A DNA stretch of 64,000 bases. It comes from Sphagnum compactum. Its lineage: Eukaryota. Under the pieces are notes generated by a model. It saw nothing but the letters and a program-made list of their open reading frames with translations. It ran no database searches and was not told the DNA's origin. A program made the translations under genes and the position numbers. Positions within the stretch are counted from its first letter, which is position 1. Each line of letters starts with the position of its first letter. Positions 3,001 through 38,442 of the stretch are shown here, one piece after another. The stretch covers positions 9,672,001 to 9,736,000 of the forward strand of contig OZ234494.1 of assembly GCA_965153455.1 (NCBI GenBank), in the 5' to 3' direction.

Positions 3001-6000
3001 CTCAAGTGAATCAAAGACACACCGGTTCAGGTAACTGCCCTTTGTCAAATGGAACTAGATCTTGAGCTTCAATGATTGTCACCCGCAAGTACCAAAGCCT
3101 GGGTGACAAGTAAACCTTTGAGCGGAAATAGGGATGGCCACCAGTGTCAGATTGCCAGGCATCAGGAAATGCCTCATCTGCCTGTGTACCCCACCAGATT
3201 GCAATCAAAATGTCTCCTGAAAATGCCCAAAGGAAGGAAGAATTCAGCAACCTTGGGAATGTTAGAATGGTGACAAGCATTCATGAGATTCAATTTCTCC
3301 AGCAGTAATTTTAGACTTGCGGGATTCTTCAGAAAACAAACATATTGTTCCCTTGCAGTTTTCTGCAAATGCATTTGTAACAACGCAGTTCTTGTCACAC
3401 ATATATTGTGGCCCAGGAGTTAAAAGCTCTTGGGGAGTACGTGCATACCTCTTACTCTACCCTTTCCATTTTTGGCCTCCAGTCTATACCACTGTGGGGG
3501 TAATGGGCTTTCAGGAGGCTTCCGTTGTGGAACTTCATGTAAATCAAACATGAGCCCTCCAAGAAAATCATCTGCTGACTCCTTATCCTGCAGAGACAAA
3601 ACACAAAACATGACTCTCATTTGACAAACAACAGAGAAATCGCTTGAACAAGAGAATACTATTCTTGTTCATGTCCTTGTTTCAATCCAAAGTTTGTTTC
3701 ATACTGCTGCACTCTATGTAGATCAGACCCAGTGTATAATTCACATTATGTGTGTAATTTCTCAAGAAGATAGATCATGTGGATAGCATTTGCTACAATT
3801 CAAGGGCACTTTGCAAATCCCAGGGTTGAAACCACATTGTGGGCATACATACTGCTAGATGGTGCACAGAGTTAAGTCCATACAAAACACCTGTTTTCTT
3901 CATCAAGGAATCAAAATCTGGATTGATGATGCCTTGTTGTACATATTTCTGAATTTCCAAAGGGGAAGGAGAAGGAGAGTGAAGGATTAGGTACCGCATC
4001 CCATACTGTAAGTTCGAGTGTTCCTCCATGAATCTTATCTCTCCCCACAGCGAAGACTTCATTCCATTCTGGGTTGAGCTCACCCCTAATAATCCTGCTC
4101 TGTGTTTTGACTGCTCCCACTGTCAACCTCACATACTGTCTCCTCCCACACCCAACATTCAAGACCAAAAAAAAATTTAGTGCGTCTAATGTGTTTGACA
4201 CAAGTAAAAAACACAATGTAGTAGTACTGCACCACCTGCTGCAACAGATGATGAGTTCTTCAATTGGGTACATAATATATGTATATCAAGTGATCAAGAA
4301 AAATTCCATTTCAGGAGGAATTGATAGAAGAAAAAGAAATTGTTCAAGAAAAGTAAATTATTACTTACAGGATCACTCTTTCCATTAGCATCTTTTGCAA
4401 GGAGATCGCGAGCCTTGACCACACGAACAAACAGATAGGTCATTTGCTCAACAAGATCAAAGTGTGTTTTCAAATCCACTGCCTTTCCAAGATCGGGATT
4501 TGTTTCCTTGACTGTGAAATCTGTATCAGGAAGAGTTCTGGGAGTTGGTCTATGAAATTCTGGTTGCTGATCTGCCTTCACTATCCTTCTGATTTGCCTG
4601 ATCCTTTCCCCTCCTCCAGCAACCCAACCTTTTTCCCTTACTACTCCAGCCCCCAGCTCCCTGGTCACAGCTCCAGCATTTTCTCCTCCACCCCCACCTC
4701 CTTTCTCTGCCTCTTTTGGTGCTTCTTTTGGTGTCTCTTTTGGGACCTCTTTGGCAACTTCTTGTACTAATTTTTTCTGTTCCTCCTTGATCTCTTCTTT
4801 GGTCTCTTCTTTGGTCTCCATTTTTTTCTCCTCTTTGACATTCTCAGACTCTTTGATTTCCTTTTTTCTCTCAGGCTCTAATTTGTTCTCAATCCCTTTG
4901 GTCTCTTCTTTTTTCTCCTCCTTTTTTTCTTCTAGTTGCTTCTCCACCTTTTCTTCTTTGGGTTGTGGTGGCGGCGGCGGTGGTGGTGGTGACTCCATTA
5001 TGTGCCAGATCCTCAGCCTGAAGAAAATCACACTGCCAGGTCAATATAGTTCTTGAACACAAATCAAACACAAATCAAGTACAATGCTTGCAATGAAGGT
5101 AATTGATATTCTCGACTTGAATCCTGCTCAATGTCAAGACTTAGAGGCTTAAATTGGGTACTGAAAAGCCAACAAATGCTTCATGAGAATGCACTAGGAC
5201 TGATAAATTCAAGAGGTGCATGGAAACAACAAAGACTTGCATTGAACTGGAGATGACAAGTGATCCAAGGATTCAACAAAAAATGTGGTGTAGAGACTTG
5301 ACAAGGTTTTCAGATGTTTTTGCAACAAAATGTTCATCTAGATTAGATCTAGAAACCAGTTAAATGAACTAAGAACATGGTCCAAGTTGGTAATAGAAGC
5401 CATGCAACTAAAAATCCATGTGCACAGCTGTTTGATTATAGCAATCAATAGAAAACAAATGACCTGGAGTACTGGCAATAATAGTAGAGGGAATCAGAGA
5501 TTCAAAGCATTTTTCTTGAGCAATGATCTTCTGAGAATCAGCTGCAGCAGTTGATCAATATGGGAAGATTGTTCAAGGAGGTGGTGGCAATTACCATTGA
5601 TGGATTATCATCCTTTGGTATTGCAGGAGAAGCTGCATGTGCAAACATGAGCTTGCAGGTCTAGACTCTATAGATCTCAAGTTGGTACTGATCAGTGCTG
5701 GCTCTGCAAATTTTGCACTTGATGGTTAAAAACGAAATGGCAAGAAGCTTGCAGGTGAAGAAAAGTACTAGAATACTCACCCTAAGTCGCCTTTGATGTT
5801 AGAGAAGAGACCTCGTTTCTGCAATGGATACCATCTCACATCGCCTGGAGCACCGGGCATGAAGCTCAAAGGAACGACCACCCTTCCTAGAAAGCTGCTT
5901 CTTCTGCCGGTACCACTCTTTCGCTCATTCTGCACGTTGATCTCCAAGTCTCCGGGCATTGATGGATCTATTATGAGAAACTCAAACTGCGCAACGTTCA

Positions 6001-14563: not shown

Positions 14564-17500
14564 CACTAGAAGAAAAACATGTATTTTCGATTAGTCTTTG
14601 TGACTAAATTTTAGTTGCAATAAACATTTTCCAACTAAAATCCCTTAGTCGCCTAAGAGAAGTCGCATGTGATAAATTAGTCGCAAATGACAAAGGGTAT
14701 TGTATGAAAGAAAAAGTCAACAAATACATTTCATCCTTTGACTCCATTGTATATGTATTGTCACATGCGACTAAGATACAACTATTTTGGTCACAATTGA
14801 GGGCAAATGATGTGTTGCCACGTGTCATAATATTTGATTATTTAAAATATTATAATAATTAATATTTTGAAATAATCTAGGACGTTCAATTCAAATACTT
14901 GGATGATCTTATATTATGACACGTGGCCCAACGTAAGTATGCCACATGGCATTAAATTTTTTTAATAAAAATATTAATATTAGATTGGTAGGTATTTGGG
15001 TAAGTACATAAATAGGTGCCTACAAACCTAGGCTACATACCAACCTACCTACTTCGGTTTAAAAATAGGTAGGTAGGTTTTACGTTCCTAGATTAAATAC
15101 CTATTCATATAGGTAGGTACTTAGGTAGGTAAGTACATAGGTCAACCTAGGTGGGTAGGTCAAACTAGGTACCTACCTAGCTAGGTATATTAGTAGGTTG
15201 GGAAGGTAAATATTTTAGAAATGTGCATAATTTGTGTTTTTGTTTTAGGTTGAGCTTTTTGATTAGCTCATCCCATGTGCACAAATTTCTTAATGTGAAA
15301 TTGGATGACCACACCCTCTTGTTTATATAATGTTCAAAATAGGATTGAAAAACAAACAATATGGGATAAGTTTTGAACTTCCTCACAAACTAAGTTGTAA
15401 TTCCAAAACTTTCTTCATGCCTTACTTTCTTAGTTTTTAGATTTCTAAACAATTCAAGTACTAAATAACTAGATAATCATTTAATTAATAATGATTAAAT
15501 TTACATATATTTAAATTATAAATTATACACTACAAATATTCAATATTCGTTATCAATTACTTAAATAAGTAATAACTTCTCAATATTTAACAAACTAGCT
15601 ATCTAGTTACTCACAAATTAATAATACATAACTCATAAATAATTAAATAAATAAAATATTTTTAAATATTTTATTATTTTTAGAATCTGTTTGAATTATA
15701 TATAATATAATTAATGTAAAAATATTTTAAATACTTAAGTTAAAATTATAAATAATGAATTAACAATTGCTATTAGAAAGTAACAAATGTTTTTAAAATT
15801 ATTATTCAACTAATTACATTACTTATTTTATAATTACATTTATTGTTGTAAAAGTTATTATAGGTCAAGTAATTTTTTTCTCTTGGTAATTGTTAACTAT
15901 AAATACAATAATTTGTTAAACACAAAATTAATTTTCATAATTACTGTAAAATTACTATAAAATATTTATCGTAAATGATTAATCACAGAATTAAAAAATA
16001 TATATTATAGAATAACTTGTGAAATTAAAATCAATAAAATAATTATTTTAACTACATGTAATTTTTCCAAATTTTTAATTCAGGTTTGAAGTTATAAATT
16101 ACATGTTCAATTAGAAATAATTATGCACATACTAATTAATTCTTATCTGAAATAATTACAATGATTTTAAAGTAATGTCACAATAATTATATTAATTAAT
16201 TCATTCTTATATAAGAATACAGATTATATCTCATACAAATATATATTATCACAATAATTATTTAGTGTAACTTAGATTTAATAAACATAATCATTTATAA
16301 TTATTTATAAAAGTGATTTAGTATGGATAACACTAGTAGGAAAAACCCTTAAAACTCAATCAATAGTTTTTTGAGTTAAAATACAAATTTAAGATTCGAA
16401 CATAATAATTCAGAATTCAAATTTCAATTTTTAGATCAAATAAGTATTTTGAAGTTAAATAACAAAATTTCAGAATTGGAATTTCAATTTTTAGATTCAA
16501 ATTATAATATTCAAAATTGAAATGTCCATTTGAAGACACAATTAACAATCTTCTGAATTGAAATATTAATTTCGAAACTCCAAAATAATAATTTAGAATT
16601 CAAATTTCAACTTTCAAGTCAAATAATTTCTTAAAATTGAAATTTTAAACTTCAGAATTAAAATATCAAATTTCAAGTCCAAATAAAAATATTTTAAAAC
16701 AAAATGTCAGTTTTCAGACTCAATAAAGTTTTTTGAATCGAAATACTAATTTTTGGAATCGAAAATAATAATTTAGAATTCAAATATCAATTTTTAGATC
16801 AAATAAGTTTTTTGAATTTAAATAAAAATTACCAGAATTGAAATGTCAATTTTCAGATTCAAATCACAATATTCAAAATTGAAATGTCCATTTCAAGATT
16901 CAATTAACAATTTTCTGAATTGAAATATGATTTTAAAAAATCCAGAATAATAATTTGGAATTCAAATTTGAACTTTGTTGTCAAATAATTTCTTAAAATT
17001 GAACTTTTAAACTTCAGAATTCAAATATCAAATTTCAAGTCCAAATAAAAATATTTTAAATCAAAATGTCAGTTTTTAGACTCAATAAAGTTTTTTGAGT
17101 TGAAATACTAATTTTTAGATTCGAAAATAATAATTTAGAATTCAAATATCAATGTTTTAGATCAAATAAGTTTTTTAAATTTAAATAACAATTGCCAAAA
17201 TTTGAAATGTCAGTTTTCAGATTAGAATAACAAAAGTGAAAATTGAAATGTCCATTTTAAAACTCAATTAATAATTTTTCATAGTTGATGTATTAATTTT
17301 GAGAATCCAAAATAATAATTTGCAATTGAAATTTCAGGTTCAAATCAAAGATTTAAAATTTAGATTCATAATTCTTAGAGTCGAAATATAAATTTTCATA
17401 TTCATATAAAAATATTCAAAATTAAAATGTCCATTTTTATAATCAATTAATAGTTTTCTGAATTGAAATACTAATTTTTGGATTGAAAAATAATAATTTA

Positions 17501-18093
17501 GAATTCAAATATCAATTTTTAGATCAAATAAGCCTTTTTGAATTTAAATTGAAAATATGAATTTCAAATCAAAAATTTGAAATTCAAATAATGTTTTAAA
17601 CATTTGAAATAATAATTTTCAGATTGAAATATCAAGTTTCAAATTCTAATATATTTTTTAAAAATTAAAATAATAGTTTTCAAAATTGAAATATCAATTT
17701 TCAGATGTATAAAAAATTCAAAATTCAAATATTAATTTTGAGATTCATTATATAAACAATATACATACGTATGCATATGATATATATATAATTTTAGTAC
17801 ATACACTAAAATACATCCCTATGTCATTATAGAATATTTTTAGGATGCAACTAATTTGATGACTATTGCGACTAATAGGACATATCAACCTATTAATGGA
17901 TGAAAATAAATGTAAAATTGATCCAACCAATAGGATGAAATTTTCTAATAGTTGCATTAGAGTTGTGAAAATGATCAAAATAGTTGAAATATGGTCTTAT
18001 AGTTGTAAATGTTCCCAAATCTAGTCACAAACGATTACAAGTCGCATGTAATTATAAATGGAGTGGTTACATTTTAGATGATTTCTACTAGTG
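14564..18093. mobile_element. Non-autonomous CACTA (En/Spm) DNA transposon, 3.53 kb
   Basis: Termini CACTAGAAGAAA...TTTCTACTAGTG; 3-bp TSD ATG (14561-14563 and 18094-18096); subterminal agtcgca/tgcgact motifs; AT-rich noncoding interior. Confidence 0.9.
16340..17750. repeat. AT-rich tandem array, about 363-bp period, roughly 4 diverged copies built from short sub-repeats, inside the CACTA element
   Basis: ttagatcaaataag recurs at 16431, 16794, 17157 and 17519. Confidence 0.85.
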
Positions 18094-20613
18094 ATGAATG
18101 TCCATTTATTGAAGATAATTTGAGGCAAGGATTTGCTGAGCATTTCTAGAATTTGAATCCGGAACCTGTAAGTTCTTTTGTGTCACCAAGTGGCAAAAAT
18201 GCCCAAAACTAACACAAGTTCAAATAGGGATGACTTGTTTGTGTTGGAATGTATAAGTAAATTAAATGGAAAACGTGGATATAATATAAGTAGACCAGGT
18301 TGCTTTTCACCCTATTTGCAGTTGTTTTGTAGGGCTGACATTAACACTTCACATAATGTAAGTGCTCAACCATATAGGATAAACCGGCCCATCATTGATT
18401 GTCTGCCTATGACCGAACACTTTGGTAGATTTTTTCAATTCTTTTCCATTTTGAGTGATTTAAAAGGTTATAGGAACACCTTTTCAAGCTTTTACATATC
18501 ATTTGAAATTGAGCCTTGACAAATTGAGCGTTGAGTGATTTGTAGCCTTGACAAATTGAGCCTTGAGTGATTTGAAATGTTATAGGAGCACCTTCTCAAG
18601 CTCTACAAATCATCTTTGAACTCTAATAGCAACAAAGCAACATACAAGGAATTTTTTAGGTGTTCAAGAATTAGCCTTTGTAACATTTGGTGGTTTTTTT
18701 TTTTGAGTTTTTGACCCCCTCGACTTAGAGGGCCGTAACTTTCTCACCAATAAGAGGAGTTCAAGTTTTGTTTAGACACCATAAATAACGAAGCACTCCC
18801 CTTGGATGCGGCCTGCCCTGAAAATCACCGACTGGTTTACCCTATCTGCACAACACTGGTTCCAACCCTCCAAACCAGGTAACCACCTGCCACTAGTTCG
18901 AATATCCCATGAAGAACAAAGCCATTACAAGATGAGCTTCTTGTTCTGTAGAGCAATTGTGAGGCACAATATTGTTCAGTTTGGGGCAGTGCCCATCATG
19001 GGCATTACATTCCTAAGGTCCCTTGACAGGCAGATTTTACTATTTATTACCAATTTGAATAGGTTTTTATCAATGTTGGGTGGTTATTGATTTCTATGAA
19101 ATGAAAAACCTTTGATTCCAATTCTAAAAACTAAATTAGAACAATCCAGTTCTGGTTCAATAAGGAAATAATTTTCATAAGATCCCCCCTTTATCTACAT
19201 TTTTGGTGTTTAATAGGGGCAAAGTGGAATTGTAATCTTTTTTTCGTGTAGTGGTATGCAGCCTACATATGTACAAGGAAAAATTATTGTTACATATCGA
19301 AATATTCCATGGACATTTTTAATTCCCAAAACAATTGGGTTCTACATTGCAAGCACCTTTAGAATTAGGCTATTAAGGACATAGATGTATTCTCCATTTA
19401 CTCCATTGCAGATGAAATGTTTTGAGCATTATCATGACTAAACTTTACATGGGCAATATTGGCTTATAAAATTTAACATTCATGTTGCTTTTGAACAACT
19501 CAGCATGAAATTGCAGAAAGACATTCACTTTATAAAAGGTTCTAGGCTTTTAGAGGTAACATAACTGAAAAGGCGAAGGTTTGAAAAATTCAATCAACTC
19601 CAGTGGGCCAAGCAGATTCACTCAAACGTACTGGTTATTGAGATGACTACACGCACATTCATGCTTAAATATAACAGTCCAAAAAGTCTTTAAGATGTTA
19701 TAACAAATAAAAACCAAGGATTGCATAAGTATGAAGTATCAACAAAATAAAACTAGTATTGAAATATAAAGTTCAGCTCACATGTTAATTTTATAAAAAA
19801 ATTAACTTGCTTACCTAATGAATAGTTTGACATTATGTTCAAGAATGTTTTTTCCAATTCCAGTTTTTGGTTCTGGATCTAATAAAAAGAAAATTCATGA
19901 TTTTGATGCTTGTACCATGTCCAATTTATAAAAAAAAAGTGCTAGTTCAAATCCAAATCACAAAACCTGACTCTGAAACCCCAAGCTAACATTGCAAACT
20001 GTATACCCTCACAACATTGATACAAACAGCAACAGTTAACATAAGAAATGGTTCAATAAAAAGGTCCCAAAAATGAACTCACAAAATTTCACAAATGACT
20101 CCTGGTGAACATTCTTCCAAATCATAATAATCTCATTAATACGATTATTAAGAGGAAAATCCAGCCAACTGAGAGCAAGCCTTTAAAAACTTGCACCTAG
20201 AAATTCTAGAGAACCAATCAAATATCTAGAATGATGATGCCATAATAATAATGGCTCTTCCCATTATACAAAGTTATTGGCAACTACACAAACCAGCAAC
20301 CACAACAGGTCTGGGAGAGAATGAATCTGAGGAATGGTTTCCAATCAAGCTCGCAGAGACTAATAACCAACCAACGAGTTTCTCACTAACAATAGTTCAG
20401 TGCCCACTCTCACAACACCTGGTGAACATTCTTCAAAATGTGGGACCAAATGCAAATTAGGCTATATCATCATTTTATACTAACTCCCTTACACGGCAGC
20501 CCAGATTTTAATAACGACGGTCTTCATAGGTAGCTATGTACTAGGTACTACCTGCCTAGTAGCAGTACCTATTACCTTGAGCCAAGTGTCCAAGGGACAT
20601 TCGACCAAGTTCG

Positions 20614-21906
20614 TCACAATCCTACTAGATAAGGTCGCAGGGAAGTCGGAGCTTGCAAGATCGGTAACGGACCAGCGAGGACACTCTCCGCGGTGGGAGC
20701 GCCAGGCTCGTCGGCAATAGCTATCATAAGGAGGCCAAGCGGCTCGATTTGGGCAGGGATGGTGACAATGCCAGTGCTGGTGTTGAATGGCACACTGTAG
20801 GTGTTCAATGCATGGAAGAACACGGCGTAGTAGTTGTCGGCCTTCGCCAGCTGATTTCCGGAATTTGACTCTACAATCAGCTCAATCGTCGTCCCCGGTG
20901 CCAGCGTTGACGTTGTGTTGGCGTTGTAGGTCAGTCGAGGCAAGTGTTGGGCACCGATTGGATACGGTGGATTGGCTGGCGGGCAAGATCCGTCTACTAT
21001 GAAGCCGTTTGTGGTGTCAAGGATCTGCGTTGCGTATGGATAGAATGTGTCGACAGGTCCCGCGAAAGGAAGGCCTCCGTACTTTGGCGAACCCCAGATG
21101 TCTTTCAGAAACCAGACCTCGTGGCGTGTCTCCGCCTGCCCAATCACGGCTAGTGCACCCTTGGAGATGTCCAGTTTTACCTGTTCTGTTAGTCCGCTCA
21201 CGAACGCCATGGACGTCAGCTCGACGAACGTTGCAAATGCTAGATACTGTGCCGGGTCTCCCGTCAGACCATAATCGTACCTACGTCGTCAGAAGCAACG
21301 AGATTGCGGTAATTGATGTTAGAAACTACTGATCTGCAGAGCTAAATTCACTTCCCATTTCCACGAATTTCACGTACTGTATTCAATTTGCAAAAAGAAA
21401 AGACACTCACTTGCATGGGCCAGGCACGACAGACGCGTTGGAAATCTGGTCCTGGAAGACGCGTAAATGTCCAGCCTCGTTGTCACGGATTTGAGCGATG
21501 CGATCAAAGGTAGTATTGGGGAAGCCTGCGTTGATGAAGTCGCTGGCGTTGAAGGGCTCCACGCCTTGCTGATACACGTTGTACACCAGCCACAGCAAGG
21601 CTTGATCTCACGCTTTCTGGGTGATTGACCCTTAGCTCAAATTCCCGAGCTTTAGAAGGTGAGGTGTTTTCGACGGGTGCAGTATAAGGCCATGATTGCT
21701 ATGCAATGGCACTACTAGAGCACCTCGAAACTATTGCAACCAATTTATTTGCACACACAAAAATAACGAATAGCAACTCCATCACTAATCAAAAGAGTGC
21801 AACTGGTTCTTCACATACCATCGACATGAACGACAACCACAAAGACCATAGCCAGGGCGGCGCACACACACAGGAGATCACTACTCAAAACTCGCAACTT
21901 TACCAT
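20614..21906 (-). pseudogene. Secreted ferritin-like domain protein (Ferritin_2 / Rds1-like, fungal-type), 3 exons, disrupted
   Basis: Exon 1 21819-21906 (MVKLRVLSSDLLCVCAALAMVFVVVVHVD, hydrophobic signal peptide), exon 2 21411-21730, exon 3 20614-21280; GT-AG introns 21731-21818 and 21281-21410. Motifs QGVEPFNASDFINAGFPNTTFDRIAQIRDNEAGH, PGPCKYDYG, FVELTSMAF, IGQAETRH, FAGPVDTFYPYATQILD, GSCPPANPPYP. In-frame TAG at 21699-21701 and a frameshift near 21595. Confidence 0.8.
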
Positions 21907-22599
21907 CTCGTCTAATTAGTAGTATATATATCTCGAAACAAGTGATGAGCTGCGAGTGTCAGCCACGTTGGTAAAAGCTGGATCGACAACTGATTCTGCA
22001 ACCTCGATCGACAAGCTGCTGCAGATCGCTAAGCAGCGACTAGATATATGTATACTATAAACTGCCAAGTTCTGTTGGGTGCAAATGCCGCAGTGCAAAC
22101 ATGATCTTAGAATGCATATGTAATGACTTCGCATCAACTCGGCGTATTTATAATCAAACGTCCAGACTCCAGCTATCAGAGATTCTAAGAGTTTGATTAG
22201 TCTCAGCTGATCTCCATTTCCACTCAACTGCGCAGGATGTCGCTTGGAAATTGTTGGAGCGTACGTGGCGTCTCGCTGTTTCAAAGGATGGATTGAAACA
22301 AAGTCCGCGATATCGCTCAGTTTGATGGAGTCTCGGTCTCTCTGGAAACGCAGCAGCAGCGCAGCGCAATTCACGTGACTTCTTCCACGTTCCTTCCTTC
22401 CTTCCTTCCTTCCTCATGGACAGCGAGACTTGGGCAAGGTGACAAAGACCCTAGTGTCACAAGTGACGATTGATTTCAGAGACATATGTTTATGCTCCCC
22501 AAAACACCACTTACCACCGTCCCTCCCAAAAAATAAAGAAAAGAAAAGAAGAAAAAAAGCAAACACTGGGTCTGATCTATTGGGTACAGGCATTAGAAG

Positions 22600-25500
22600 A
22601 CAAGGTTTATGTAGAAACCTATTACTATCATAACTAGAATGATACTCAAGTGGATGAGACACCAGCAAAAATACAAGTTCAAAATCTTCAAATAGTAGGT
22701 TAGACTTTGACTGAAAAACAACAACTTGTTAAACTGAATCTTGGCATAGAGGCAAATCCACAATACATCAAGGTTAATTCACAATTGACAAAGGAGAAGA
22801 TTGAGGAACTTTAGATGCTACTTAAAGAGTTCAAGGATGTGTTTGCCTAGACTTACAAAGATTTAAAAGACATACCTCCAAAATTGGCTCACCATAGAAT
22901 TGTGTTAGATACTTCAATTCCACCAGTGCATCAAACAAGGTGTAGATTGAACCTTAATTATGTTGCAGTTGTCAAACAAGACATTGACAAACTATTAGCA
23001 GCTGGATTTATTCAACCGGTAGAGGAGGTTACATGGTTATCACCCATAATGGTAGTGCTTAAGAAGAATGGTAAATTGAGAATTTGTGTGGATTTTAGGA
23101 AGCTCAATAAGGCAACCAAAAAAAATCCTTATCCTTTGCCATTTTCTAATGAAGTATTGAACACTATAATAGGGTATGAAGCCTACTCAATTCTAGATGG
23201 ATATTCAAAATACCATCATATTTTTATAACCCCTAAGGATAGACACAAAATAACTTTTGTAATAGATTAGGGAGCTTTTGTTTGGATGGTGATGCCATTT
23301 GGTGTCAAAATGGGCCACCAACTTTCCAAAAAGCAGTTAACAAAGCCTTTAGAGAATATTTAGACTAGTTCATGAAGATATTTTTAGACAACTTCACAAC
23401 TTATAGTGATATGCAAAGTCATTTGATGAAGTTTAGTCTTTGTTTTCAGAAGTGCAAAGAATATAGAATTAGTTTTTAACCCAGAAAAATGTGCCTTTAT
23501 GTTATTTTCAAGACTAATTTTAGGGTTCATAGTTTCCAAGGAAGGAAAAATACCAAACCCTAAAAAAGTTCAGGCAATATTGAACATGCCAGTACCTACC
23601 AATCCACAATAGATTCAGGTTTTTAATGGTATGGCTCAATTTTATCAAGAATTAATTTGCCTTTATCATGGCACCAATCACCAAGTTGATGAAAAAAACA
23701 GAACCTTTTATCTAGACCATAAAATGTTAAGAAGCTTGGGATCAGATCAAGTAGAAGTACATAAAAAACATCGTTTCTAATACCTCCAAATTGGTAGTTG
23801 GAGTTTCATGTGCTTACAAATGCATCATTGTTGGTAGTAGGTGTAATGTTGGCATAGAATCCAATTAGTAAGTATGACCAGCCTATAGTATATGCTTCTA
23901 AATTTTTCAATAAGGCAAAACATAATTATACTACTACAGAAAGAGAAGCTTTAGCAATGGTTTATGCTTTGCATAAGTTTAAACATTTTTTATCGAGAAA
24001 CAAATTTGTTTTTTATGTAGACCATAAGGCTACAGTGTACTTGGTCAACAAACCATAGGTGTCAAGAAGGATAGCAAGATGGTTGTTCTTATTCTTGGAG
24101 TATGAGTTCACAATATTTTACAAACTTGGTAAAACATGTGGTTGCTGATGTTTTATCTAGATTTCTAGACAGTTTAGAACCATTGGGTGTCCCAGATTAG
24201 ACTCTGGATGCATCATTATTTTTGTAAAACCTATATGAATGCAAGAAGTAAAAACCTATTTAGAGAAAGGTCAGATGCCAGAAACTTTGAATGTAGCTCA
24301 GAAATAGAAGTTAGCTAGAAAGGCAGAACCTTTCATTTTGAAACAGAGAATTATGTACATAATGGGACAAGACAACAGAATGCGTAGATGTTTGACCACC
24401 TCAAAAGCATAGATTGTTCTGAAGGAGCTACATGGAAGAATGGTTGGACGACATTTTGCTACAGATATCACTGCAAAGAAAACATTATATGCAAGATATT
24501 GGTGGCCAACTTTATTTAAGGATGCTCATGACTTTTGCAAAAGTTGTGATAGTTGTTAGAAAATTGGAGGATTCAAAACAAAGAGTTTGGCCAAGTTGGT
24601 AACAACACTTCTAAAGGAACACTTTATAAAGTGGGGTCTAGATTTTATAGGTCCAATCAAACCAGCATGAAGACTAACAAAAAACAAATACAGTTTGGTA
24701 GCTACATATTATGCAACCAAGTGGGTAGAGGCAAAGGCATTCAGAACCAATATTGCAGTAGTTATAGCCAAATTTCTATATGAGTATATTTTGACTAGAT
24801 TTGGATGTCCATTGACCATAATTATAGATCAAGGAATACATTTCATCAATGACACAATAAAACATCTAACAAAACAGTTTCTGTTGAAGCATGTTAGTTC
24901 TACTACATATTATCCACAGGGAAATGAACAAGTACAATCTACCAACAAAATCATTAATAGACTATTAACCAAGTTGGTTAATGAGAAAAGAACAGACTAG
25001 GATGGACATCTATCTATAGTTTTGTTTTCATATATGACTGCTTACAAGGTGGCAATAGGTGATACACCCTACCAATTAATTTATGTTTTGCATCTTTTAT
25101 TGCTAACAAAATAGGTTGTGTTGGTTATTAGTGGGGACCACAGAGATGCAAAACCAACCAGAGTGTTAACAGCCACCAAAATTGGAAAAAATATAAGAGA
25201 ATATATTAGAAGTTCAAAACAATGCGGGAGCCAACCAATGGAATAGATATCTATGGAGTCAATAGAAAAGTACTAAAAAGAAGTTCCAATTTGGAGATTA
25301 TGTCTTATGGTTTCCCAAAGGAAAAATAACACATCTAGGCAAATTCAAGAAAAGATGGTTTGGTCCATTAAGGTTACAATATTGCTTACCCAATAATACT
25401 GTTCTTCTTGTTTTATTAATAATTTTGAACCAAACCCAATATTGGTCAATGTTAATAAGTTGAAACCATATACATATGTGGATTAAACATTGAAGGGAAT
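22600..25500 (+). mobile_element. Decayed Ty3/Gypsy (non-chromovirus) pol: RT, RNase H, integrase
   Basis: WLSPIMVVLKKNGKLRICVDFRKLNKAT, MPFGVK, NYTTTEREALAMVYAL, YWWPTLFKDAHDFC, WGLDFIGP, TKWVEAKA, YYPQGNEQVQSTNK, WFGPLR; numerous stops and frameshifts; boundaries approximate. Confidence 0.9.
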
Positions 25501-33699: not shown

Positions 33700-33735
33700 G
33701 AAGATTGAAAGCGCAAAAGTGTGAGAACTACCACC

Positions 33736-34711
33736 ATGGACAACTCAGAATCCAACATCGATCTCACTCAAATCCTCGCCGCCCTTCAACACCTTCAACA
33801 AGAAAATGCCGTGCTTAGAGACTCGGTGACCCGCCTACAGAATCAGCCACCACCTCCTGCCCCAGTACTTCCTGCTCTTGCAATGGCCGCCCAACAACCC
33901 AAGATCAGTCTGCTAGAAAAGTTTGATGGAACGCGCCTCAAATTTCGAGGCTTTGTCAGCCAGGTACGCCTGATCATGCAACTACACCCCCGTCGTTATT
34001 TTGATGACACCACTCGTGTAGGATTCGTTGGAACCCTACTCACTGGGACAGCTGCAGCATGGTTTGCTCCCATCCTGGAAACATCATCCCCTCTTCTACA
34101 AGATTTCAACGCCTTTATGGCGGAATTTGAAGCAGTATTTGGGGACAGTGATAAGGCCAGGACTTCAGCCAACAAGCTGCGTCGCCTCCAGCAAGGGACA
34201 CGTTCGACCATCGTCTACGCTTCAGAATTCAGGCAGCTTGCCCTGTGACGTCAATTGGGGAGAAGCTGCCTTGATTGATTAGTTTCGCTGTGGGCTTCGT
34301 GATGATGTTCAAGATCTTTTGTTGACACTCGCAGACCCTTCTTCCTTCAGTGAAGCCATCACCCAGGCAATTCGGTGCGATAATCGTCTGTTCGAACGTC
34401 GCCAGGAAAAGAAAGTCACCTCCAACGCCCAGCTTTGGAACAGTCGGCCTATTACGCTCCCCTTAGTTCCCCAAACAACACCAGTTGCCCGACCTGCCTC
34501 TTTTGGACCTGCTCCAATGCAGATCGACACAGCTAAGTTTAAATCTTTGACAGAAGCCGAGAAACTTCGCCGAAGGACAAACAATCTATGTCTTTACTGT
34601 GGCAACCCAGGGCATATAGCTCGTCAATGCCCTCAAAAGCTTGTCAAACTTCAGGTACAAGCTGTGGAAACTCCCCAGGAGTTGGAAAACAAGAACATCC
34701 AGTCACAGTAG
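33736..34711 (+). pseudogene. gag: Chromovirus gag (Retrotrans_gag plus CCHC), disrupted by a frameshift near 34243 and a TAG at 34279-34281
   Basis: PKISLLEKFDGTRLKFRGF, LTGTAAAWF, LRRLQQG, then CDVNWGEAALID*FRCGL in another frame, GPAPMQID, CLYCGNPGHIARQC. Confidence 0.9.
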
Positions 34712-37700
34712 GAGCCGTGCGACTGGATCTCACCCAACACCACCTTTGCAAAGGCTCCTGTTCCGCTGTTGGTCCCAGTCCCAGTTTCACTCAGTATGTG
34801 GACATCATTCGTATTCCAGAAGACATACCACAAGTGTCAGCTTTGGTGGACTCCGGCGCCACCTCTTCTTTCATCGACCAAACATTTGTCGTCCAACACA
34901 ACATCCTTGTGGTCAAGAAGTCAACCCCTGTTCCGGTAGAGGTTATTGATGGGAGAACCATTGCTTCTGGTGCAATCACACACGAGACAACCCCTCTAGA
35001 ACTCTGTATCGGCAAGCACACGGAGAAGATTGTTCTCAACATCATTTCCACCCCTCACCATCCCATCATCCTTGGTCTGCCTTGGCTAGAAGCACACAAC
35101 CCTATCATTGATTGGCGATCTAGAACCCTCACCTTCAGCGCACAACGATGCACCTCTCAAGAACCCCACACTCAGAAAAACACTTTGTCCAGTCCTGCCA
35201 AGAACCCTGTGGTCGAGAACCCAAAGAGGGTCGGAACCAATTCCAGTTTTATCAAGTCTGTTATGTCAAATCCTGCAGTCAAGAACCCCCGATTGGTTAG
35301 AACGAAACCTTGTCCTGTCAAGAATCTTGTCAAGAATTCTGCCCAGAAAACCAACCCTGTCCAGATCTTCGTTGATAGAGCTGTCCCTTTCTATCGGGCT
35401 GCTAAGAATCTTCAAGTCTTCGCCATCCATGTCAACCCAGCCAACACCACAAACCCCCAATCGGAACCAACACCTGTCAAACTTCCCAAGAAGTACAAGG
35501 ACTTTGCTGATGTTTTTGAAAAGATTAATGCTGATCAGCTCCCCGCCCATAGTCCATATGACTGCCCGATTGATCTAGAAGAAGGACACTCACCACCCTT
35601 TGGTCCTATCTATGGCCTATCGGAACCGGAACTCCAAGCCCTGCGTGATTACCTTACTGAAAATCTTGCCAAGGGGTTCATTCAGCATTCCAAGTCTCCA
35701 GCCGGCGCCCTAATTTTGTTTGTCAAGAAGAAGGATGGCTCCCTTCGACTTTGTGTGGATTATCGTGGACTCAACAAGATAACCAAAAAGAATCGATATC
35801 CTTTGCCCTTGATTTCAGGTCTCCTAGATCGACTACGTACCGGGAAGATCTTCACCAAGCTTGACCTCCGTGGAGCCTACAACTTACTCAGGATTCGCCC
35901 TGGTGATGAATGGAAGACAGCTTTCCGCACACGCTATGGCCACTTCGAATACACGGTCATGCCCTTCAGCCTCACCAATGCACCCGCAGTCTTTCAGCAT
36001 CTGATGAATGATATCTTCCGGGATTACATGGACGAATTTGTCGTGGTCTATTTGGATGACATTTTAATCTTTTCCAAGGACCAGGAAACCCACGACAAAC
36101 ATGTACGATTGGTGCTTGCGACGCTGCGGGAGCATGGCTTATACGCCAAGTTGGAAAAATGTGAATTCGACAAATCTTCAGTGGCGTTCCTCGGCTACGT
36201 GATCTCTCCAGATGGCATTTTCATGGACAAGTCAAAGGTCGAGACCATCCAGTGTTGGGCTACTCCATCCTCGGTCAAAGACGTTCAACACTTCCTAGGG
36301 TTTGCCAACTTCTATCGTCGGTTTATCAAAGGCTACTCCAAGATCACAACACCGTTAATAACCCTGACTTGCAAAGACAAGCCCTTCTCGTGGAATCCAA
36401 CGGCCCAGGCTGCTTTTGATACTCTCAAGATGGCATTCACCTCTGCACCCATCCTGATACATCCCGATCCTGCCAAGCCATTCATTGTGGAAACGGACGC
36501 TTCAGATTTTGCCTTGGGAGCTATTCTATCTCAATTTGGAATAGATGGGTTGCTGCATCCAGTTGCTTTCTATTCACGGAAGTTAACCAGTGCCGAAATC
36601 AACTACCAGGTCTACGATAAGGAACTCCTGGCAATCATCACGGCATTCGAGCAGTGGAGACCGTATCTTGCCGGAGCTCAACATCGAGTCCAAGTTCTGA
36701 CAGATCACAAGAATCTCCTTTATTTCACAACTACTCGGACCTTAAATCGTCGCCAGGCACGCTGGTCTATCTTCCTAGCTGATTTCGACTTTGAGATTCA
36801 GTATCAACCCGGCACCCAGCAAGGGAAAGCTGACGCGCTATCTCGTCGTTCAGAATATGAACTTCGAGCGGGGGATGAGGCCTACGGCCAGCAGAACCAG
36901 ACTTTACTCAACCCCAAGCAATTTCGAGTTGCAGCAACAATCAGCACCCTCCCAGACTCATACCTTGTCAGGGACATCAAGATAGCAACTGAGGAAGACA
37001 CCTGGGCTACCAACATCAAGAAGGAACTCCAGGAACGACCAAGGAACCCAAATCGTGATGACTTGGATCAATTTGAGCAGCAAGACGGACTTCTCCTTCG
37101 AAATAACCTGATTTATGTACCCGAAGGACCTATACGCCTAAAAATCCTGAGGGAATGCCACGACAACACCCTGGCAAGTCACTTTGGAATGGCACGGACT
37201 CACGAACTAGTGTCAAGGACTTACTGGTGGCCCAAAATGAACAAGATGCTACGGGAGTATGTCAAGTCTTGTGATACATGTGCTCGATCCAAGGCTCCAA
37301 GGCATCGCCCGTTTGGACTCCTACAGCCTCTGTCGATTCCTAGCCGACCTTGGGGATCTATTGCAATGGACTTCATCACGGACCTCCCTACTGTCAGAAC
37401 CAAGAATTCAATACTGGTTGTGGTCGATCGACTCACCAAAATGGCCCATTTCACCCCTTGTTCCAAGTCAATCACGGCAGAAGAGACAGCTCAGTTAATT
37501 CTGGACGGGATCGTCCGACTGCATGGACTCCCCGAGGAAATTGTGTCCGACAGAGGTCCTCAGTTTGCATCCAAGTTCTGGCATCGTCTATTCGAGCTTC
37601 TTGGAGTTGACATTCGGCTATCTTCAGCTTTCCACCCTGAGACAAATGGTCAAACCGAACGGACAAACCAGACACTCGAGCAATACCTTCGCTGCACTGT

Positions 37701-38442
37701 GAACTACCAACAGGACGACTGGCTGGACCTACTATCTCAAGCAGAGTTTGCTTATAATAACACAACACATGCATCGACCGGGATCAGTCCATTCTTTGCC
37801 AATTACGGTTTTCATCCCAGGTTCAGCCTTGAAATTCCTGGAGACTCCGTAAACCCCTCGGCTGAAGAAAGGGCCACGAGGCTTGGACAGGTTCAACAGA
37901 ACCTTATGGCAGAACTCAAGCTAACACAGGAGTGGCAAAAGAAGCAAGCAGACCGCCGACGCAAGGACCATCCAAACTTCAAGGTTGGAGACAAGGTCTG
38001 GCTTCTCAGAAAGAACATTGCTACCACTCGCCCATGTGCCAAGTTGGATTACAAGCGCCTCGGACCTTTCAAAATCGCCAAATTGGTTGGTCTAGTGGCT
38101 TGCCAGTTGGAGCTTCCACCCCAGTTCAAAATCCACAATGTTTTCCATGTCTCCCTGCTTGAGCCCTATCATGAAAACCCGATCCCAGAACGTCATCAAG
38201 AACCCCCAGCTCCAGTCGAAATTGAAGGCCAAGAAGAGTTTGAAGTTCAGGAGGTCTTGGACTCCAAGAAGATTCGTGGAAAGCTCCTGTACCTTGTCTT
38301 TTGGCGAGGTTATCCTCCTTCTGAAGCTACTTGGGAGCCTGCTGGAAACCTAGTTCATGCCCAAGACTTAATTAATCGGTTTCACCAACGATATCCTAAC
38401 AAACCGGCTCCATCTAGAAGATGTCGCTTGAGGAGAGGATAA
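34588..38442 (+). CDS. pol: Chromovirus Pol polyprotein (protease, RT, RNase H, integrase, chromodomain); open ORF in the -1 frame relative to gag
   Basis: ALVDSGATSSF; LRLCVDYRGLN, YLDDILI; ETDASDFALGA, YDKELLAI; CHD...SHFG...CDTC, AMDFITDL, SDRGPQF, GQTERTNQ; EFEVQEVLDSK...YLVFWRGYPPSEATWEP. True start is probably via frameshift at about 34690. Confidence 0.95.
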   Translation: MSLLWQPRAYSSSMPSKACQTSGTSCGNSPGVGKQEHPVTVGAVRLDLTQHHLCKGSCSAVGPSPSFTQYVDIIRIPEDIPQVSALVDSGATSSFIDQTFVVQHNILVVKKSTPVPVEVIDGRTIASGAITHETTPLELCIGKHTEKIVLNIISTPHHPIILGLPWLEAHNPIIDWRSRTLTFSAQRCTSQEPHTQKNTLSSPAKNPVVENPKRVGTNSSFIKSVMSNPAVKNPRLVRTKPCPVKNLVKNSAQKTNPVQIFVDRAVPFYRAAKNLQVFAIHVNPANTTNPQSEPTPVKLPKKYKDFADVFEKINADQLPAHSPYDCPIDLEEGHSPPFGPIYGLSEPELQALRDYLTENLAKGFIQHSKSPAGALILFVKKKDGSLRLCVDYRGLNKITKKNRYPLPLISGLLDRLRTGKIFTKLDLRGAYNLLRIRPGDEWKTAFRTRYGHFEYTVMPFSLTNAPAVFQHLMNDIFRDYMDEFVVVYLDDILIFSKDQETHDKHVRLVLATLREHGLYAKLEKCEFDKSSVAFLGYVISPDGIFMDKSKVETIQCWATPSSVKDVQHFLGFANFYRRFIKGYSKITTPLITLTCKDKPFSWNPTAQAAFDTLKMAFTSAPILIHPDPAKPFIVETDASDFALGAILSQFGIDGLLHPVAFYSRKLTSAEINYQVYDKELLAIITAFEQWRPYLAGAQHRVQVLTDHKNLLYFTTTRTLNRRQARWSIFLADFDFEIQYQPGTQQGKADALSRRSEYELRAGDEAYGQQNQTLLNPKQFRVAATISTLPDSYLVRDIKIATEEDTWATNIKKELQERPRNPNRDDLDQFEQQDGLLLRNNLIYVPEGPIRLKILRECHDNTLASHFGMARTHELVSRTYWWPKMNKMLREYVKSCDTCARSKAPRHRPFGLLQPLSIPSRPWGSIAMDFITDLPTVRTKNSILVVVDRLTKMAHFTPCSKSITAEETAQLILDGIVRLHGLPEEIVSDRGPQFASKFWHRLFELLGVDIRLSSAFHPETNGQTERTNQTLEQYLRCTVNYQQDDWLDLLSQAEFAYNNTTHASTGISPFFANYGFHPRFSLEIPGDSVNPSAEERATRLGQVQQNLMAELKLTQEWQKKQADRRRKDHPNFKVGDKVWLLRKNIATTRPCAKLDYKRLGPFKIAKLVGLVACQLELPPQFKIHNVFHVSLLEPYHENPIPERHQEPPAPVEIEGQEEFEVQEVLDSKKIRGKLLYLVFWRGYPPSEATWEPAGNLVHAQDLINRFHQRYPNKPAPSRRCRLRRG
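38430..38439 (+). promoter_or_regulatory. Polypurine tract
   Basis: GAGGAGAGGA just before the 3' LTR, overlapping the end of pol. Confidence 0.85.

What the first reader, a model, noticed from the sequence alone, without database searches (positions are those of the whole stretch)
20460..22430. Fungal-type secreted ferritin-like gene on a GC-richer island: candidate fungus-to-plant horizontal transfer, now pseudogenised
Seen: an island of about 2 kb, visibly richer in GC and CpG than its AT-rich flanks, carrying a complete 3-exon minus-strand gene that the ORF track shows only in pieces. It has a signal peptide, short introns (88 and 130 nt, the second with a CTGAC branch point a few nt from the AG), two ExxH motifs (NEAGH, AETRH) plus the intervening E (FVELTS), and a C-terminal extension. 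Known: these are diiron-carboxylate motifs of the ferritin-like Ferritin_2 family, which includes fungal Rds1-like stress proteins and plant desiccation protein PCC13-62. Inference from recall: segments such as AGFPNTTFDRIAQIRDNEAGHLRVFQDQIS, FAGPVDTFYPYATQILD and GSCPPANPPYP resemble ascomycete members more than PCC13-62. The premature TAG (likely CAG>TAG) and a frameshift at the first ligand helix suggest decay in this genome rather than contamination. Intact paralogues could represent an undescribed acquired stress-protection family.
Basis: partly seen in the sequence, partly recalled or inferred. Interest (0 to 1): 0.8.

Follow-up and report, generated by a model that had tools for sequence, protein, structure and literature searches.

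The report
Broken fungal-type Rds1 gene in peat moss
This is a recently disabled copy of a small peat-moss gene family whose closest relatives outside bryophytes are fungal stress proteins, so the family probably came from a fungus, but such a transfer into bryophytes has already been reported and intact copies are already annotated.

Summary
The GC- and CpG-rich island is real: GC 0.49 against 0.37 for the window, CpG o/e 0.97 against 0.39. On its minus strand lies a copy of a multicopy Sphagnum gene for a fungal-type Rds1 protein (Pfam Ferritin_2 plus a C-terminal beta-sandwich).

Intron 2 (130 nt), the signal-peptide exon and the NEAGH / FVELTS / AETRH motifs are there. The "88-nt intron, premature TAG and frameshift" are a misread remnant of intron 1.

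The real lesion is one clean 365-bp deletion at 21594|21593. It removes the intron-1 acceptor and codons about 30-93, including the first metal-ligand glutamate. The remaining 282 codons are still open and look constrained, so the loss is recent.

Intact 375-aa paralogues are annotated in five Sphagnum species. Apart from Sphagnum, every named relative in the hit lists is a fungus, except Ceratodon (moss) and Calypogeia (liverwort).

Bryophyte sequences are as similar to Pezizomycotina Rds1 as those fungal proteins are to each other. That favours fungus-to-bryophyte transfer, but AU tests do not reject the alternative trees.

A 2025 paper already reports fungal RDS1 acquired by liverworts. Verdict: real, mostly correctly interpreted, moderately interesting, a new member of a known kind.

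The parts
21819..21906 (-). Exon 1 (88 nt, ATG at 21906-21904). It encodes a hydrophobic N-terminus, the presumed signal peptide, and ends in phase 1 before a GTATGT donor.
   Evidence: Sequence. tblastn residues 1-20 of P0001 match at 85%. In register with exon 1 of L003, L001, L004 and L005.
21594..21818 (-). Remnant of intron 1 (225 nt; 382-400 nt in intact copies). It has no acceptor site.
   Evidence: Alignment A2, columns about 190-416, nearly identical to intron 1 of L004 and L005.
21593..21594 (-). Deletion junction. 365 nt are lost relative to L004/L005 and 367 relative to L003/L001: 175 nt of intron 1 plus 190 nt of exon 2, about codons 30-93. There is 2-nt GT microhomology.
   Evidence: One 371-column gap in the window row only. 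All 10 fetched loci that reach this point break alignment at 21592/21593.
21411..21593 (-). Retained 3' part of exon 2 (183 nt). It encodes W94-K154 of the intact protein, including the first ExxH (NEAGH).
   Evidence: tblastn residues 94-153. Pfam Ferritin_2 at 31.2 bits.
21281..21410 (-). Intron 2, 130 nt, GT..AG, phase 2, with CTGAC near the 3' end.
   Evidence: Sequence. Conserved in all five aligned rows.
20614..21280 (-). Exon 3 (664 nt) plus the stop codon at 20616-20614. It carries helix C (FVELTS), helix D (AETRH) and the C-terminal beta-sandwich domain.
   Evidence: ORF of 224 aa. 92% identical to P0001 residues 154-375. Domain layout from the AF2 model of P0001.
21907..22591 (-). 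Upstream region shared with paralogous loci (presumed promoter and 5' UTR). It includes a (TTCC)6 microsatellite at 22390-22414.
   Evidence: blastn 86-95% to L001-L008 up to 22591. Tandem repeat call.
18173..20613 (-). 3' UTR and patchy downstream homology with paralogous loci (20425-20613, 19168-20302, 18173-18336). The duplicated block is about 4.4 kb, larger than the GC island.
   Evidence: blastn against L002, L004-L007, L010 and L014.

Best explanation
Window 20614-21906 (minus strand) is a dead or dying member of a multicopy Sphagnum gene family for fungal-type Rds1 proteins.

Intact members (375 aa, three exons) have three parts. These are an N-terminal signal-like peptide, a four-helix ferritin-like bundle with a six-residue E / ExxH / E / ExxH dinuclear metal site, and a C-terminal Ig-like beta-sandwich. 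This is the two-domain layout of the only solved relative, the tardigrade ferritin-like metabolite phosphatase RvFeMP-1.

In this copy, one 365-bp deletion with GT microhomology removed the 3' end of intron 1 with its acceptor, plus the first 190 nt of exon 2. About 64 conserved residues are lost, including the helix-A glutamate ligand. Normal splicing and a complete metal site are therefore impossible.

The deletion is recent. The remaining 282 codons have no stop or frameshift, and their lineage-specific changes still look constrained.

Shown here: the anatomy, the deletion, family membership, the fold, and the plant genomic context.

Inferred:
- The family entered bryophytes from a Pezizomycotina-like fungus by horizontal transfer.
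- It then turned over by local duplication and loss in Sphagnum.
- Intact proteins probably work in the secretory pathway or apoplast as dinuclear-metal enzymes, either a phosphatase-type hydrolase or a redox enzyme, linked to stress.
For: Anatomy and deletion.

Family:
- Ferritin_2 at 31.2 bits for the window piece and 56.1 bits for P0001.
- 92% protein identity to S. magellanicum CY35_02G070600.
- Named members occur in S. magellanicum, S. fallax, S. jensenii, S. troendelagicum and S. tenellum on 30-36 Mb scaffolds, several per genome.
- 14 Sphagnum-like loci were fetched. Two of them lie on one 109.6-kb contig.

Constraint (NG86 on 282 codons):
- dN/dS is 0.26-0.47 between the window and other copies.
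- Window-unique changes are 6 synonymous and 5 non-synonymous. About 2.6 and 8.4 would be expected if neutral (binomial p 0.027).
- By contrast L008 has a stop codon, gaps, and 6 synonymous to 21 non-synonymous changes.

Fungal affinity:
- All named non-Sphagnum rows among the 120 listed of 638 hits are fungi.
- The nearest Atlas clusters are fungal Rds1.
- Median identities: Sphagnum to Pezizomycotina-type rows 47.6%; Ceratodon/Calypogeia to those rows 54.1%; those rows among themselves 54.5%; the basidiomycete-type row to them 31.5%.
- The quick tree puts Sphagnum inside a 9-row fungal clade (SH-aLRT 95).
- Ceratodon plus Calypogeia (100/99) sit in the Pezizomycotina polytomy.

Plant context: PRT_C and C2 domains at 628-2221 and a chromovirus at 33709-38442.

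Fold:
- AF2 model of P0001 has pLDDT 88.2 and pTM 0.85, with helices 83-215 and strands 269-363.
- The six best Foldseek PDB hits are RvY_06210 chains (E 5e-11 to 1e-9, TMt 0.74-0.78, about 297 columns). The next hits are bacterioferritins at E about 0.07.
- The profile search of the PDB finds only that protein (E 2.7e-12).

Ligands: E132, H135, E174, E204 and H207 are invariant, and E93 is kept in at least 90% of 58 sequences.

Function of the solved relative: Zn/Mg dinuclear site and phosphatase activity (PMC11616004; abstract and sections 6 and 9 read).
Against: - The topology is not decisive. The careful tree puts Sphagnum as sister to all Pezizomycotina-type rows with weak support (93/79).
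- AU tests do not reject any of three alternatives. These are all six bryophyte rows as one clade (p 0.316), bryophytes outside the 49 Pezizomycotina-type rows (p 0.369), and bryophytes outside all 50 fungal rows (p 0.253).
- Only one basidiomycete-type lineage, on a long branch, was available as an inner reference.
- The deletion is not independently confirmed by reads. Logan contigs of X1 and X2 end at 21592/21593. No listed record bridges the junction, and 50 records were not shown. Raw Hi-C reads (about 2% of the run) gave no depth in bin 21515-21595.
- The constrained look of the retained codons, together with two in-frame cryptic AG acceptors at 21608/21607 and 21602/21601 (read), leaves room for a truncated but used product.
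- RNA evidence is thin. 14 reads were laid from about 12% of one polyA run. None were at 99% or better, and the variants of those in the gene match the intact paralogue.
- The metal site differs from RvFeMP-1: Ser in place of Asp135 and Glu in place of Asp162 (alignment against section 9 of the paper). Phosphatase activity is therefore an extrapolation.
Confidence: 0.8

Rival explanations
1. The copy still works. Exon 1 splices to a cryptic in-frame acceptor just upstream of the junction, giving a protein of about 314 aa. That protein keeps the signal peptide, helices B-D and the beta-sandwich, but lacks about 64 N-terminal residues.
For: - Two AG dinucleotides, at 21608/21607 and 21602/21601, would keep the phase-1 frame into W94 (sequence; open frame 21407-21607).
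- The retained 282 codons have no stop.
- Window-unique changes are 6 synonymous to 5 non-synonymous (p 0.027 against neutrality).
Against: - The deleted stretch holds invariant or nearly invariant residues, including P47, P64, D82, D83, Q87, N88, L89, A92 and the ligand E93. It also holds most of helix A of the bundle (model helix 83-106).
- No pyrimidine tract precedes the cryptic AGs.
- No RNA read at 99% or better was laid on the copy.
- The constrained pattern is equally explained by a recent deletion.
Confidence: 0.1
2. The 365-bp gap is an assembly error, and the gene is intact in the living plant.
For: - No read or contig listed bridges 21594|21593.
- Contigs carrying intact-paralogue sequence end at that very point.
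- Collapses between near-identical paralogues are a known failure of assemblers (general knowledge).
Against: - The junction is clean, with 2-nt microhomology. Both sides are otherwise collinear with L004 at 92-96%.
- The contigs of X1 listed on the upstream side (record 6, 21592-22173) match the window with 0 differences. The paralogue contig on the other side (record 5) differs at 6 places. The two sides are therefore distinguishable copies.
- Summed contig depth in bin 21515-21595 (104.5) exceeds that of the single listed paralogue contig (69.6), which suggests unlisted contigs there.
Confidence: 0.07
3. The family is an old eukaryotic gene inherited vertically in fungi and bryophytes and lost in nearly all other plants. 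It was not transferred.
For: - AU tests do not reject trees with bryophytes outside the Pezizomycotina-type rows (p 0.369) or outside all fungal rows (p 0.253).
- A single bryophyte clade is not rejected either (p 0.316).
- The Sphagnum stem is long, 0.77-1.14 changes per site.
Against: - Ceratodon and Calypogeia proteins are as similar to Pezizomycotina-type Rds1 (median 54.1%) as those are to each other (54.5%). The basidiomycete-type protein is far from both (31.5% and 34.5%).
- No vascular plant or alga appears among the listed hits: 120 of 638 and 120 of 470.
- Beyond the Rds1 group, similarity drops at once to 25-32%.
- Dong et al. 2025 classify RDS1 in liverworts as fungus-derived.
Confidence: 0.1
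4. The island is fungal contaminant DNA joined to moss sequence by mis-assembly.
For: - The exons are GC-richer (0.55) and not CpG-depleted (o/e 1.0), unlike the neighbouring plant gene (0.43 and 0.27).
- The island-to-flank junctions were not bridged by the listed contigs.
Against: - The same gene, with the same introns, upstream region and partly the same AT-rich downstream flank, occurs at 14 Sphagnum-like loci.
- It also occurs on chromosome-scale scaffolds of five named Sphagnum species.
- Identity to any fungal protein is at most about 54%.
- The window also holds a plant MCTP-type gene and plant-type retrotransposons.
Confidence: 0.01

Closest known systems
Pezizomycotina 'stress response protein Rds1p' family (Pfam PF13668 Ferritin_2 with a C-terminal extension), e.g. 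proteins of Cladophialophora, Fonsecaea, Hypoxylon, Botrytis and Mycoblastus
   Same: - Same length (about 350-375 aa).
- End-to-end collinear alignment at 40-54% identity.
- Same N-terminal hydrophobic peptide.
- Same six metal-ligand positions and same conserved C-terminal domain.
   Different: - The host is a moss.
- The Sphagnum genes have two spliceosomal introns, form a local multicopy family, and sit on a long stem branch.
- The window copy lacks about 64 residues.
- Names such as 'Rds1' are the sources' annotations, not tested functions.
Fungal RDS1 gene reported as acquired by liverworts (Dong et al. 2025, Nat Genet, PMC12513842)
   Same: The same gene family moves in the same direction, fungus to bryophyte. 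Calypogeia (liverwort) proteins found here belong to the same family.
   Different: - The paper's main text names liverworts only (section 8).
- Here the family is also found in the mosses Sphagnum and Ceratodon.
- Sphagnum does not group with the Ceratodon plus Calypogeia clade in any free tree.
- Its supplementary HGT tables could not be opened and may already list mosses.
RvFeMP-1 (RvY_06210), ferritin-like metabolite phosphatase of the tardigrade Ramazzottius varieornatus (PDB 8kce, 8wai, 8w9k; PMC11616004)
   Same: - Only solved relative (profile E 2.7e-12).
- Same two-domain fold, a ferritin-like bundle plus an Ig-like domain (TMt 0.74-0.78 over about 297 columns).
- Dinuclear site built from all four helices.
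- N-terminal signal-like peptide.
   Different: - About 21% identity.
- The ligand set is E / ExxH / E / ExxH, rather than the Glu51, Glu90, His93, Glu132, Asp135, Asp162 set of the tardigrade enzyme. Metal and chemistry may therefore differ.
- No activity was tested here.
Plant desiccation-related protein PCC13-62 and Deinococcus DRB0118 (Ferritin_2 'clade 2')
   Same: Same Pfam family, a signal peptide, and a link to stress tolerance in the literature (PMC11616004 section 6).
   Different: - According to that paper these lack the Ig-like domain, which the Sphagnum protein has.
- No sequence named PCC13-62 was fetched, so the distance was not measured directly.
- Generic Ferritin_2 hits of about 300 aa are only 25-32% identical.

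Membership tests
Pfam PF13668 Ferritin_2 | HMM score above the gathering threshold (24.7 bits) | tested here: met
   Window exon-2 piece scores 31.2 bits (E 2.7e-7). Intact paralogue P0001 scores 56.1 bits. Exon 3 alone gives no hit.
Pfam PF13668 Ferritin_2 | Complete dinuclear metal site: Glu (helix A), ExxH (helix B), Glu (helix C), ExxH (helix D) | tested here: not met
   The window copy keeps NEAGH, the Glu of FVELTS, and AETRH. The helix-A Glu (E93 of P0001) lies in the deleted 190 nt of exon 2. Intact paralogues P0001 and P0002 have all six ligands. P0003 has Lys at the helix-A position.
Fungal (Pezizomycotina-type) Rds1 | Full-length collinear similarity, including the C-terminal domain beyond Ferritin_2 | tested here: met
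   P0001 aligns over 86-100% of its length at 46-56% identity by BLASTP, or 40-54% on alignment A3. Window exon 3 is 44-50% identical to fungal proteins over 92-96% of its length.
Fungal (Pezizomycotina-type) Rds1 | Phylogenetic position inside the fungal radiation | tested here: inconclusive
   Nested in the quick tree (SH-aLRT 95). Sister to the Pezizomycotina-type rows in the careful tree (93/79). Unresolved without outgroups. AU p values 0.369 and 0.253 for bryophytes outside.
Horizontally transferred gene (fungus to plant) | Physically integrated in the recipient genome | tested here: met
   Plant MCTP-type gene and Ty3/gypsy elements in the same 64-kb window. Homologues on 30-36 Mb scaffolds of five Sphagnum species. 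Spliceosomal introns conserved among copies.
Horizontally transferred gene (fungus to plant) | Patchy distribution in the recipient kingdom against a broad distribution in the donor kingdom | tested here: inconclusive
   Named plant hits are only Sphagnum, Ceratodon and Calypogeia. All other named hits are fungi.
FeMP-type ferritin-like metabolite phosphatase (RvFeMP-1) | Ferritin-like bundle plus Ig-like domain fold | tested here: met
   AF2 model with pLDDT 88.2. Foldseek E 5e-11, TMt 0.76-0.78. This applies to the intact paralogue, not the window copy.
FeMP-type ferritin-like metabolite phosphatase (RvFeMP-1) | Same metal ligands and phosphatase activity | not testable with these tools
   The ligand positions align, but two differ in kind: Ser for Asp135 and Glu for Asp162. 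Activity needs a bench assay.
Plant PCC13-62-type desiccation-related proteins | Close sequence kinship with streptophyte PCC13-62 proteins and no Ig-like domain | tested here: not met
   The Sphagnum protein has the beta-sandwich domain. No vascular-plant protein is among the listed hits. Direct comparison with a named PCC13-62 sequence was not done.

The most novel reading that the evidence does not exclude
Sphagnum took up its Rds1 gene from a Pezizomycotina-like fungus in a transfer separate from the one that gave Ceratodon and Calypogeia theirs. The same fungal stress gene would then have been captured and kept at least twice by bryophytes. In peat mosses it then grew into a birth-and-death cluster, whose intact, secretory-pathway members act as dinuclear-metal enzymes in tolerance of drying, oxidative stress or phosphate poverty.
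Probability: 0.35. Interest if true: 0.5.

Novelty: new member of a known kind. Interest (0 to 1): 0.35.

Why it matters
Peat mosses store a large share of soil carbon, and how they tolerate drying and nutrient poverty is of practical interest.

A fungal stress-protein family that is kept under purifying selection and multiplied in Sphagnum would be a concrete candidate for such tolerance. If gained independently of other bryophytes, it would be an example of repeated capture of the same foreign gene.

The particular copy in this window matters less. It documents turnover, by a recent deletion, within that family.

The fold match to the tardigrade phosphatase gives the first testable biochemical hypothesis for these moss proteins.

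Tried and rejected
- Whole genome of the window: none is held. Paralogues in the same genome could not be counted, so metagenome loci and named proteins were used instead.
I cannot say whether mosses or Sphagnum are listed there for RDS1.
- Reads:
  - Meant to confirm the deletion junction, the island borders and expression.
  - Logan contigs are short and end at paralogue branch points, including 21592/21593.
  - Hi-C raw reads were too thin, and their loose ends at 21635 fall on a CTAAG site. I read that as a Hi-C ligation point (my inference).
  - The polyA run gave 14 reads, none at 99% or better. Ten of them lie on a 34-nt repeat at 20414-20447.
  - No verdict on the junction or on expression follows from this.
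- Donor lineage: three trees disagree on the nearest fungal class. No donor is named. The careful search without outgroups was not finished (one search shows the quick tree).
- Earlier findings of the scan: nothing on this family.
- Literature searches for Sphagnum with Rds1, ferritin-like, PF13668 or fungal HGT: no paper in the held library states a fungal origin for the Sphagnum genes. The only Rds1-plus-bryophyte paper is PMC12513842.
- Rows left out of the trees:
  - Most of the about 120 listed fungal hits were thinned by hand to 73, 59 and 55 rows.
  - P0006, P0004 and P0005 (partial models) were never included.
  - P0125 and P0130 (long branches) were dropped.

Full report
**Observation**

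The region is a real compositional island. In 500-nt windows, GC rises from 0.30-0.35 to 0.47-0.54 between about 20250 and 22500. The whole window has GC 0.373 and CpG o/e 0.39, and the flanks have CpG o/e 0.31 and 0.085.

The coding parts are more extreme still, at GC 0.55, CpG o/e 1.0 and GC3 0.63. A resident plant gene in the same window has GC 0.43 and CpG o/e 0.27.

On the minus strand there is a 224-aa open frame (20617-21288) and a 66-aa frame (21410-21607). The second hits Pfam Ferritin_2 above threshold (31.2 bits against 24.7). The motifs NEAGH, FVELTS and AETRH, the 130-nt second intron with CTGAC before its AG, and an ATG followed by a hydrophobic stretch are all present.

**What the gene really looks like**

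The best protein match is a 375-aa hypothetical protein of Sphagnum magellanicum, at 92% over exon 3. Further Sphagnum proteins follow.

A scan of metagenome contigs with that protein gave 14 Sphagnum-like loci. One is 100% identical to it, and two lie on one 109.6-kb contig.

I aligned the window with four intact loci. The window row has a single gap of 371 columns and is otherwise collinear.

Counted on the closest loci, 365 nt are missing: 175 nt from the 3' end of intron 1, with its acceptor, and the first 190 nt of exon 2. The junction is at 21594|21593, with a two-base GT overlap. Intact copies have a first intron of 382-400 nt.

All 10 of the 14 loci that reach this point stop aligning at 21592/21593. 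The other four cover only the 3' end.

tblastn with the intact protein finds residues 1-20, 94-153 and 154-375 in the window, and nothing for about 31-93.

The true parts are:
- exon 1: 21906-21819
- intron-1 remnant: 21818-21594
- rest of exon 2: 21593-21411
- intron 2: 21410-21281
- exon 3: 21280-20617, with the stop at 20616-20614

**Is it dead, and since when**

The lost segment carries residues that are invariant or nearly so across 58 family members. These include the helix-A glutamate that completes the E / ExxH / E / ExxH metal site. It also covers most of the first bundle helix of the model. With no acceptor and no first ligand, the ordinary product cannot be made.

Yet the 282 retained codons have no stop or frameshift. 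dN/dS against other copies is 0.26-0.47. The changes private to the window are 6 synonymous and 5 non-synonymous, which differs from a neutral expectation of about 2.6 and 8.4 (binomial p 0.027).

I read this as a recent deletion.

A minority reading remains open. One of two in-frame cryptic AG acceptors just upstream of the junction (21608/21607 and 21602/21601) might yield a shortened protein.

Another family member, L008, shows what old decay looks like: a stop, gaps, and 6 synonymous against 21 non-synonymous private changes.

**Reads**

One search and one lay were allowed.
- Contigs of two DNA runs match the window-specific upstream part with no differences (21592-22173). They also show a paralogue contig with six differences ending at 21593, whose overhang continues into intact exon 2.
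- No listed record bridges the junction, and 50 records were not shown.
- Raw Hi-C reads (2% of the run) left the junction bin empty.
- A polyA RNA run (12% read) gave 14 reads, none at 99% or better.
  - The few reads in the gene carry the paralogue's variants.
  - The rest lie on a 34-nt repeat at 20414-20447.

The reads therefore confirm neither the deletion nor any expression of this copy.

**Genomic setting**

The window is plant DNA. ORFs at 628-2221 (minus strand) carry PRT_C and C2 domains of a plant MCTP-type gene. Coordinates 33709-38442 hold a Ty3/gypsy chromovirus with gag and a 1299-aa pol frame. A reverse-transcriptase fragment lies right beside the island at 22851-23270.

Homology with the paralogous loci runs from 22591 down to about 18173 in patches. 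The duplicated unit (about 4.4 kb) is thus larger than the GC island.

Named family members lie on 30-36 Mb scaffolds of S. magellanicum, S. fallax, S. jensenii, S. troendelagicum and S. tenellum, with several per genome. Contamination is excluded for practical purposes.

**Origin of the family**

- A profile search listed the best 120 of 638 hits. Every row with an organism name, apart from Sphagnum, is a fungus. Nearly all are Pezizomycotina, and one is Basidiobolus.
- An exhaustive search of 1.84 billion representatives found 302 hits, 33 of them below 1e-30. Identity falls from 40-57% to 25-32% outside this group. Of the ten representatives looked up, six carry an organism name and all six are fungi.
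- The Atlas's nearest clusters are fungal Rds1.
- A search from a Helotiales-like member brought up three more bryophyte proteins: one of the moss Ceratodon purpureus and two of the liverwort Calypogeia fissa.

Trees:
- Sphagnum forms a clade with full support on a long stem of 0.77-1.14 changes per site.
- Ceratodon plus Calypogeia form another clade (100/99).
- The two never join in a free tree.
- Sphagnum is nested among fungal rows in the quick tree (SH-aLRT 95).
- It is sister to them in the careful, outgroup-rooted tree (93/79).
- It is unresolved without outgroups.

AU tests reject nothing:

| Constraint | p-AU |
|---|---|
| One bryophyte clade | 0.316 |
| Bryophytes outside the 49 Pezizomycotina-type rows | 0.369 |
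| Bryophytes outside all 50 fungal rows | 0.253 |

The case for transfer rests on distribution and on distances:

| Comparison | Median identity |
|---|---|
| Ceratodon/Calypogeia to Pezizomycotina-type rows | 54.1% |
| Pezizomycotina-type rows among themselves | 54.5% |
| Sphagnum to Pezizomycotina-type rows | 47.6% |
| Sphagnum to the other bryophytes | 46.7% |
| Basidiomycete-type row to Pezizomycotina-type rows | 31.5% |

A gene inherited vertically since plants and fungi parted should not sit at within-Pezizomycotina distances. I put fungus-to-bryophyte transfer at about 0.8. Whether there was one event or several stays open.

**Likely function of intact members**

The AF2 model of the intact protein (pLDDT 88.2, pTM 0.85) has a helical bundle at 83-215 and a seven-strand beta-sandwich at 269-363.

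Its only clear structural matches are six chains of RvY_06210 (E 5e-11 to 1e-9, TMt 0.74-0.78 over about 297 columns). Bacterioferritins follow at E about 0.07. The sequence profile finds the same protein alone in the PDB (E 2.7e-12).

That protein is RvFeMP-1, a tardigrade ferritin-like metabolite phosphatase with a Zn/Mg dinuclear site and an IgG-like domain. The same paper notes that S. pombe Rds1 is uncharacterised and reported in the ER, and that PCC13-62 and DRB0118 lack the IgG-like domain (PMC11616004: passages, abstract, sections 9 and 6).

The moss and fungal proteins keep the canonical six-ligand set, whereas the tardigrade enzyme has Asp at two positions.

My inference is a secretory-pathway, dinuclear-metal enzyme. 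A phosphatase-type hydrolase is the leading guess, and a redox role (Mn or Fe) is the alternative. None of this was tested here.

**Comparison with what is known, and novelty**

Dong et al. 2025 (PMC12513842: passages, section 8 in full) state that the fungal RDS1 gene was acquired by liverworts and is potentially linked to stress responses. Their supplementary tables could not be opened.

Seven full-text searches found no paper in the held library that assigns a fungal origin to the Sphagnum genes. The genes themselves are annotated in public genomes.

The finding is therefore a new member of a known kind. It is a real, mostly well-interpreted horizontal-transfer candidate, seen here through a recently broken copy.

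Interest is moderate (0.35). It would rise if an independent Sphagnum acquisition, or a role in peat-moss stress tolerance, were shown.

Noticed in passing
window 628-5040 (-): ORFs with PRT_C (plant phosphoribosyltransferase C-terminal) and C2 domains, apparently a plant MCTP-type gene. Its GC is 0.43 and CpG o/e 0.27, unlike the Rds1 island.
   Followed up: partly
window 33709-38442 (+): Apparently intact Ty3/gypsy chromovirus. It has a gag ORF (179 aa) and a 1299-aa pol frame with protease, RT, RNase H, integrase and chromodomain.
   Followed up: partly
window 15250-17750: Extremely AT-rich stretch (GC 0.14-0.20) holding a 362-bp satellite in 3.3 copies (16354-17549) made of about 20-bp sub-repeats.
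   Followed up: no
window 22851-23270 (+): Reverse-transcriptase-like open frame (RVT_1, weak, 18.1 bits) directly upstream of the island. The homology between paralogous loci ends at 22591, just before it.
   Followed up: no
window 20414-20447: A 34-nt element with very high summed contig depth (335 in X1). Ten polyA RNA reads continue into unrelated sequence on both sides. A similar word recurs near 20110-20130.
   Followed up: no
L008:1446-3087: Another member of the family is an older pseudogene. It has an in-frame stop, gaps, and 6 synonymous against 21 non-synonymous private changes.
   Followed up: partly
L004 and L009 (one 109.6-kb contig, about 15 kb apart, opposite strands): Two near-identical copies (dS 0.01) in inverted orientation, which indicates a recent local duplication in the family.
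   Followed up: partly
protein P0003 (Sphagnum-like, 375 aa): Full-length copy with Lys in place of the helix-A ligand Glu. It may be a copy that has lost metal binding.
   Followed up: no
proteins P0344, P0347, P0349: A moss (Ceratodon purpureus) and a liverwort (Calypogeia fissa) share a strongly supported Rds1 clade (100/99) at 65-68% identity. Calypogeia has at least four such proteins.
   Followed up: partly
protein P0110 (Basidiobolus ranarum): The Rds1 of this early-diverging fungus sits among Pezizomycotina and bryophyte sequences (median 57.6% to Pezizomycotina-type rows). It is not at the base, which may mark another transfer.
   Followed up: no
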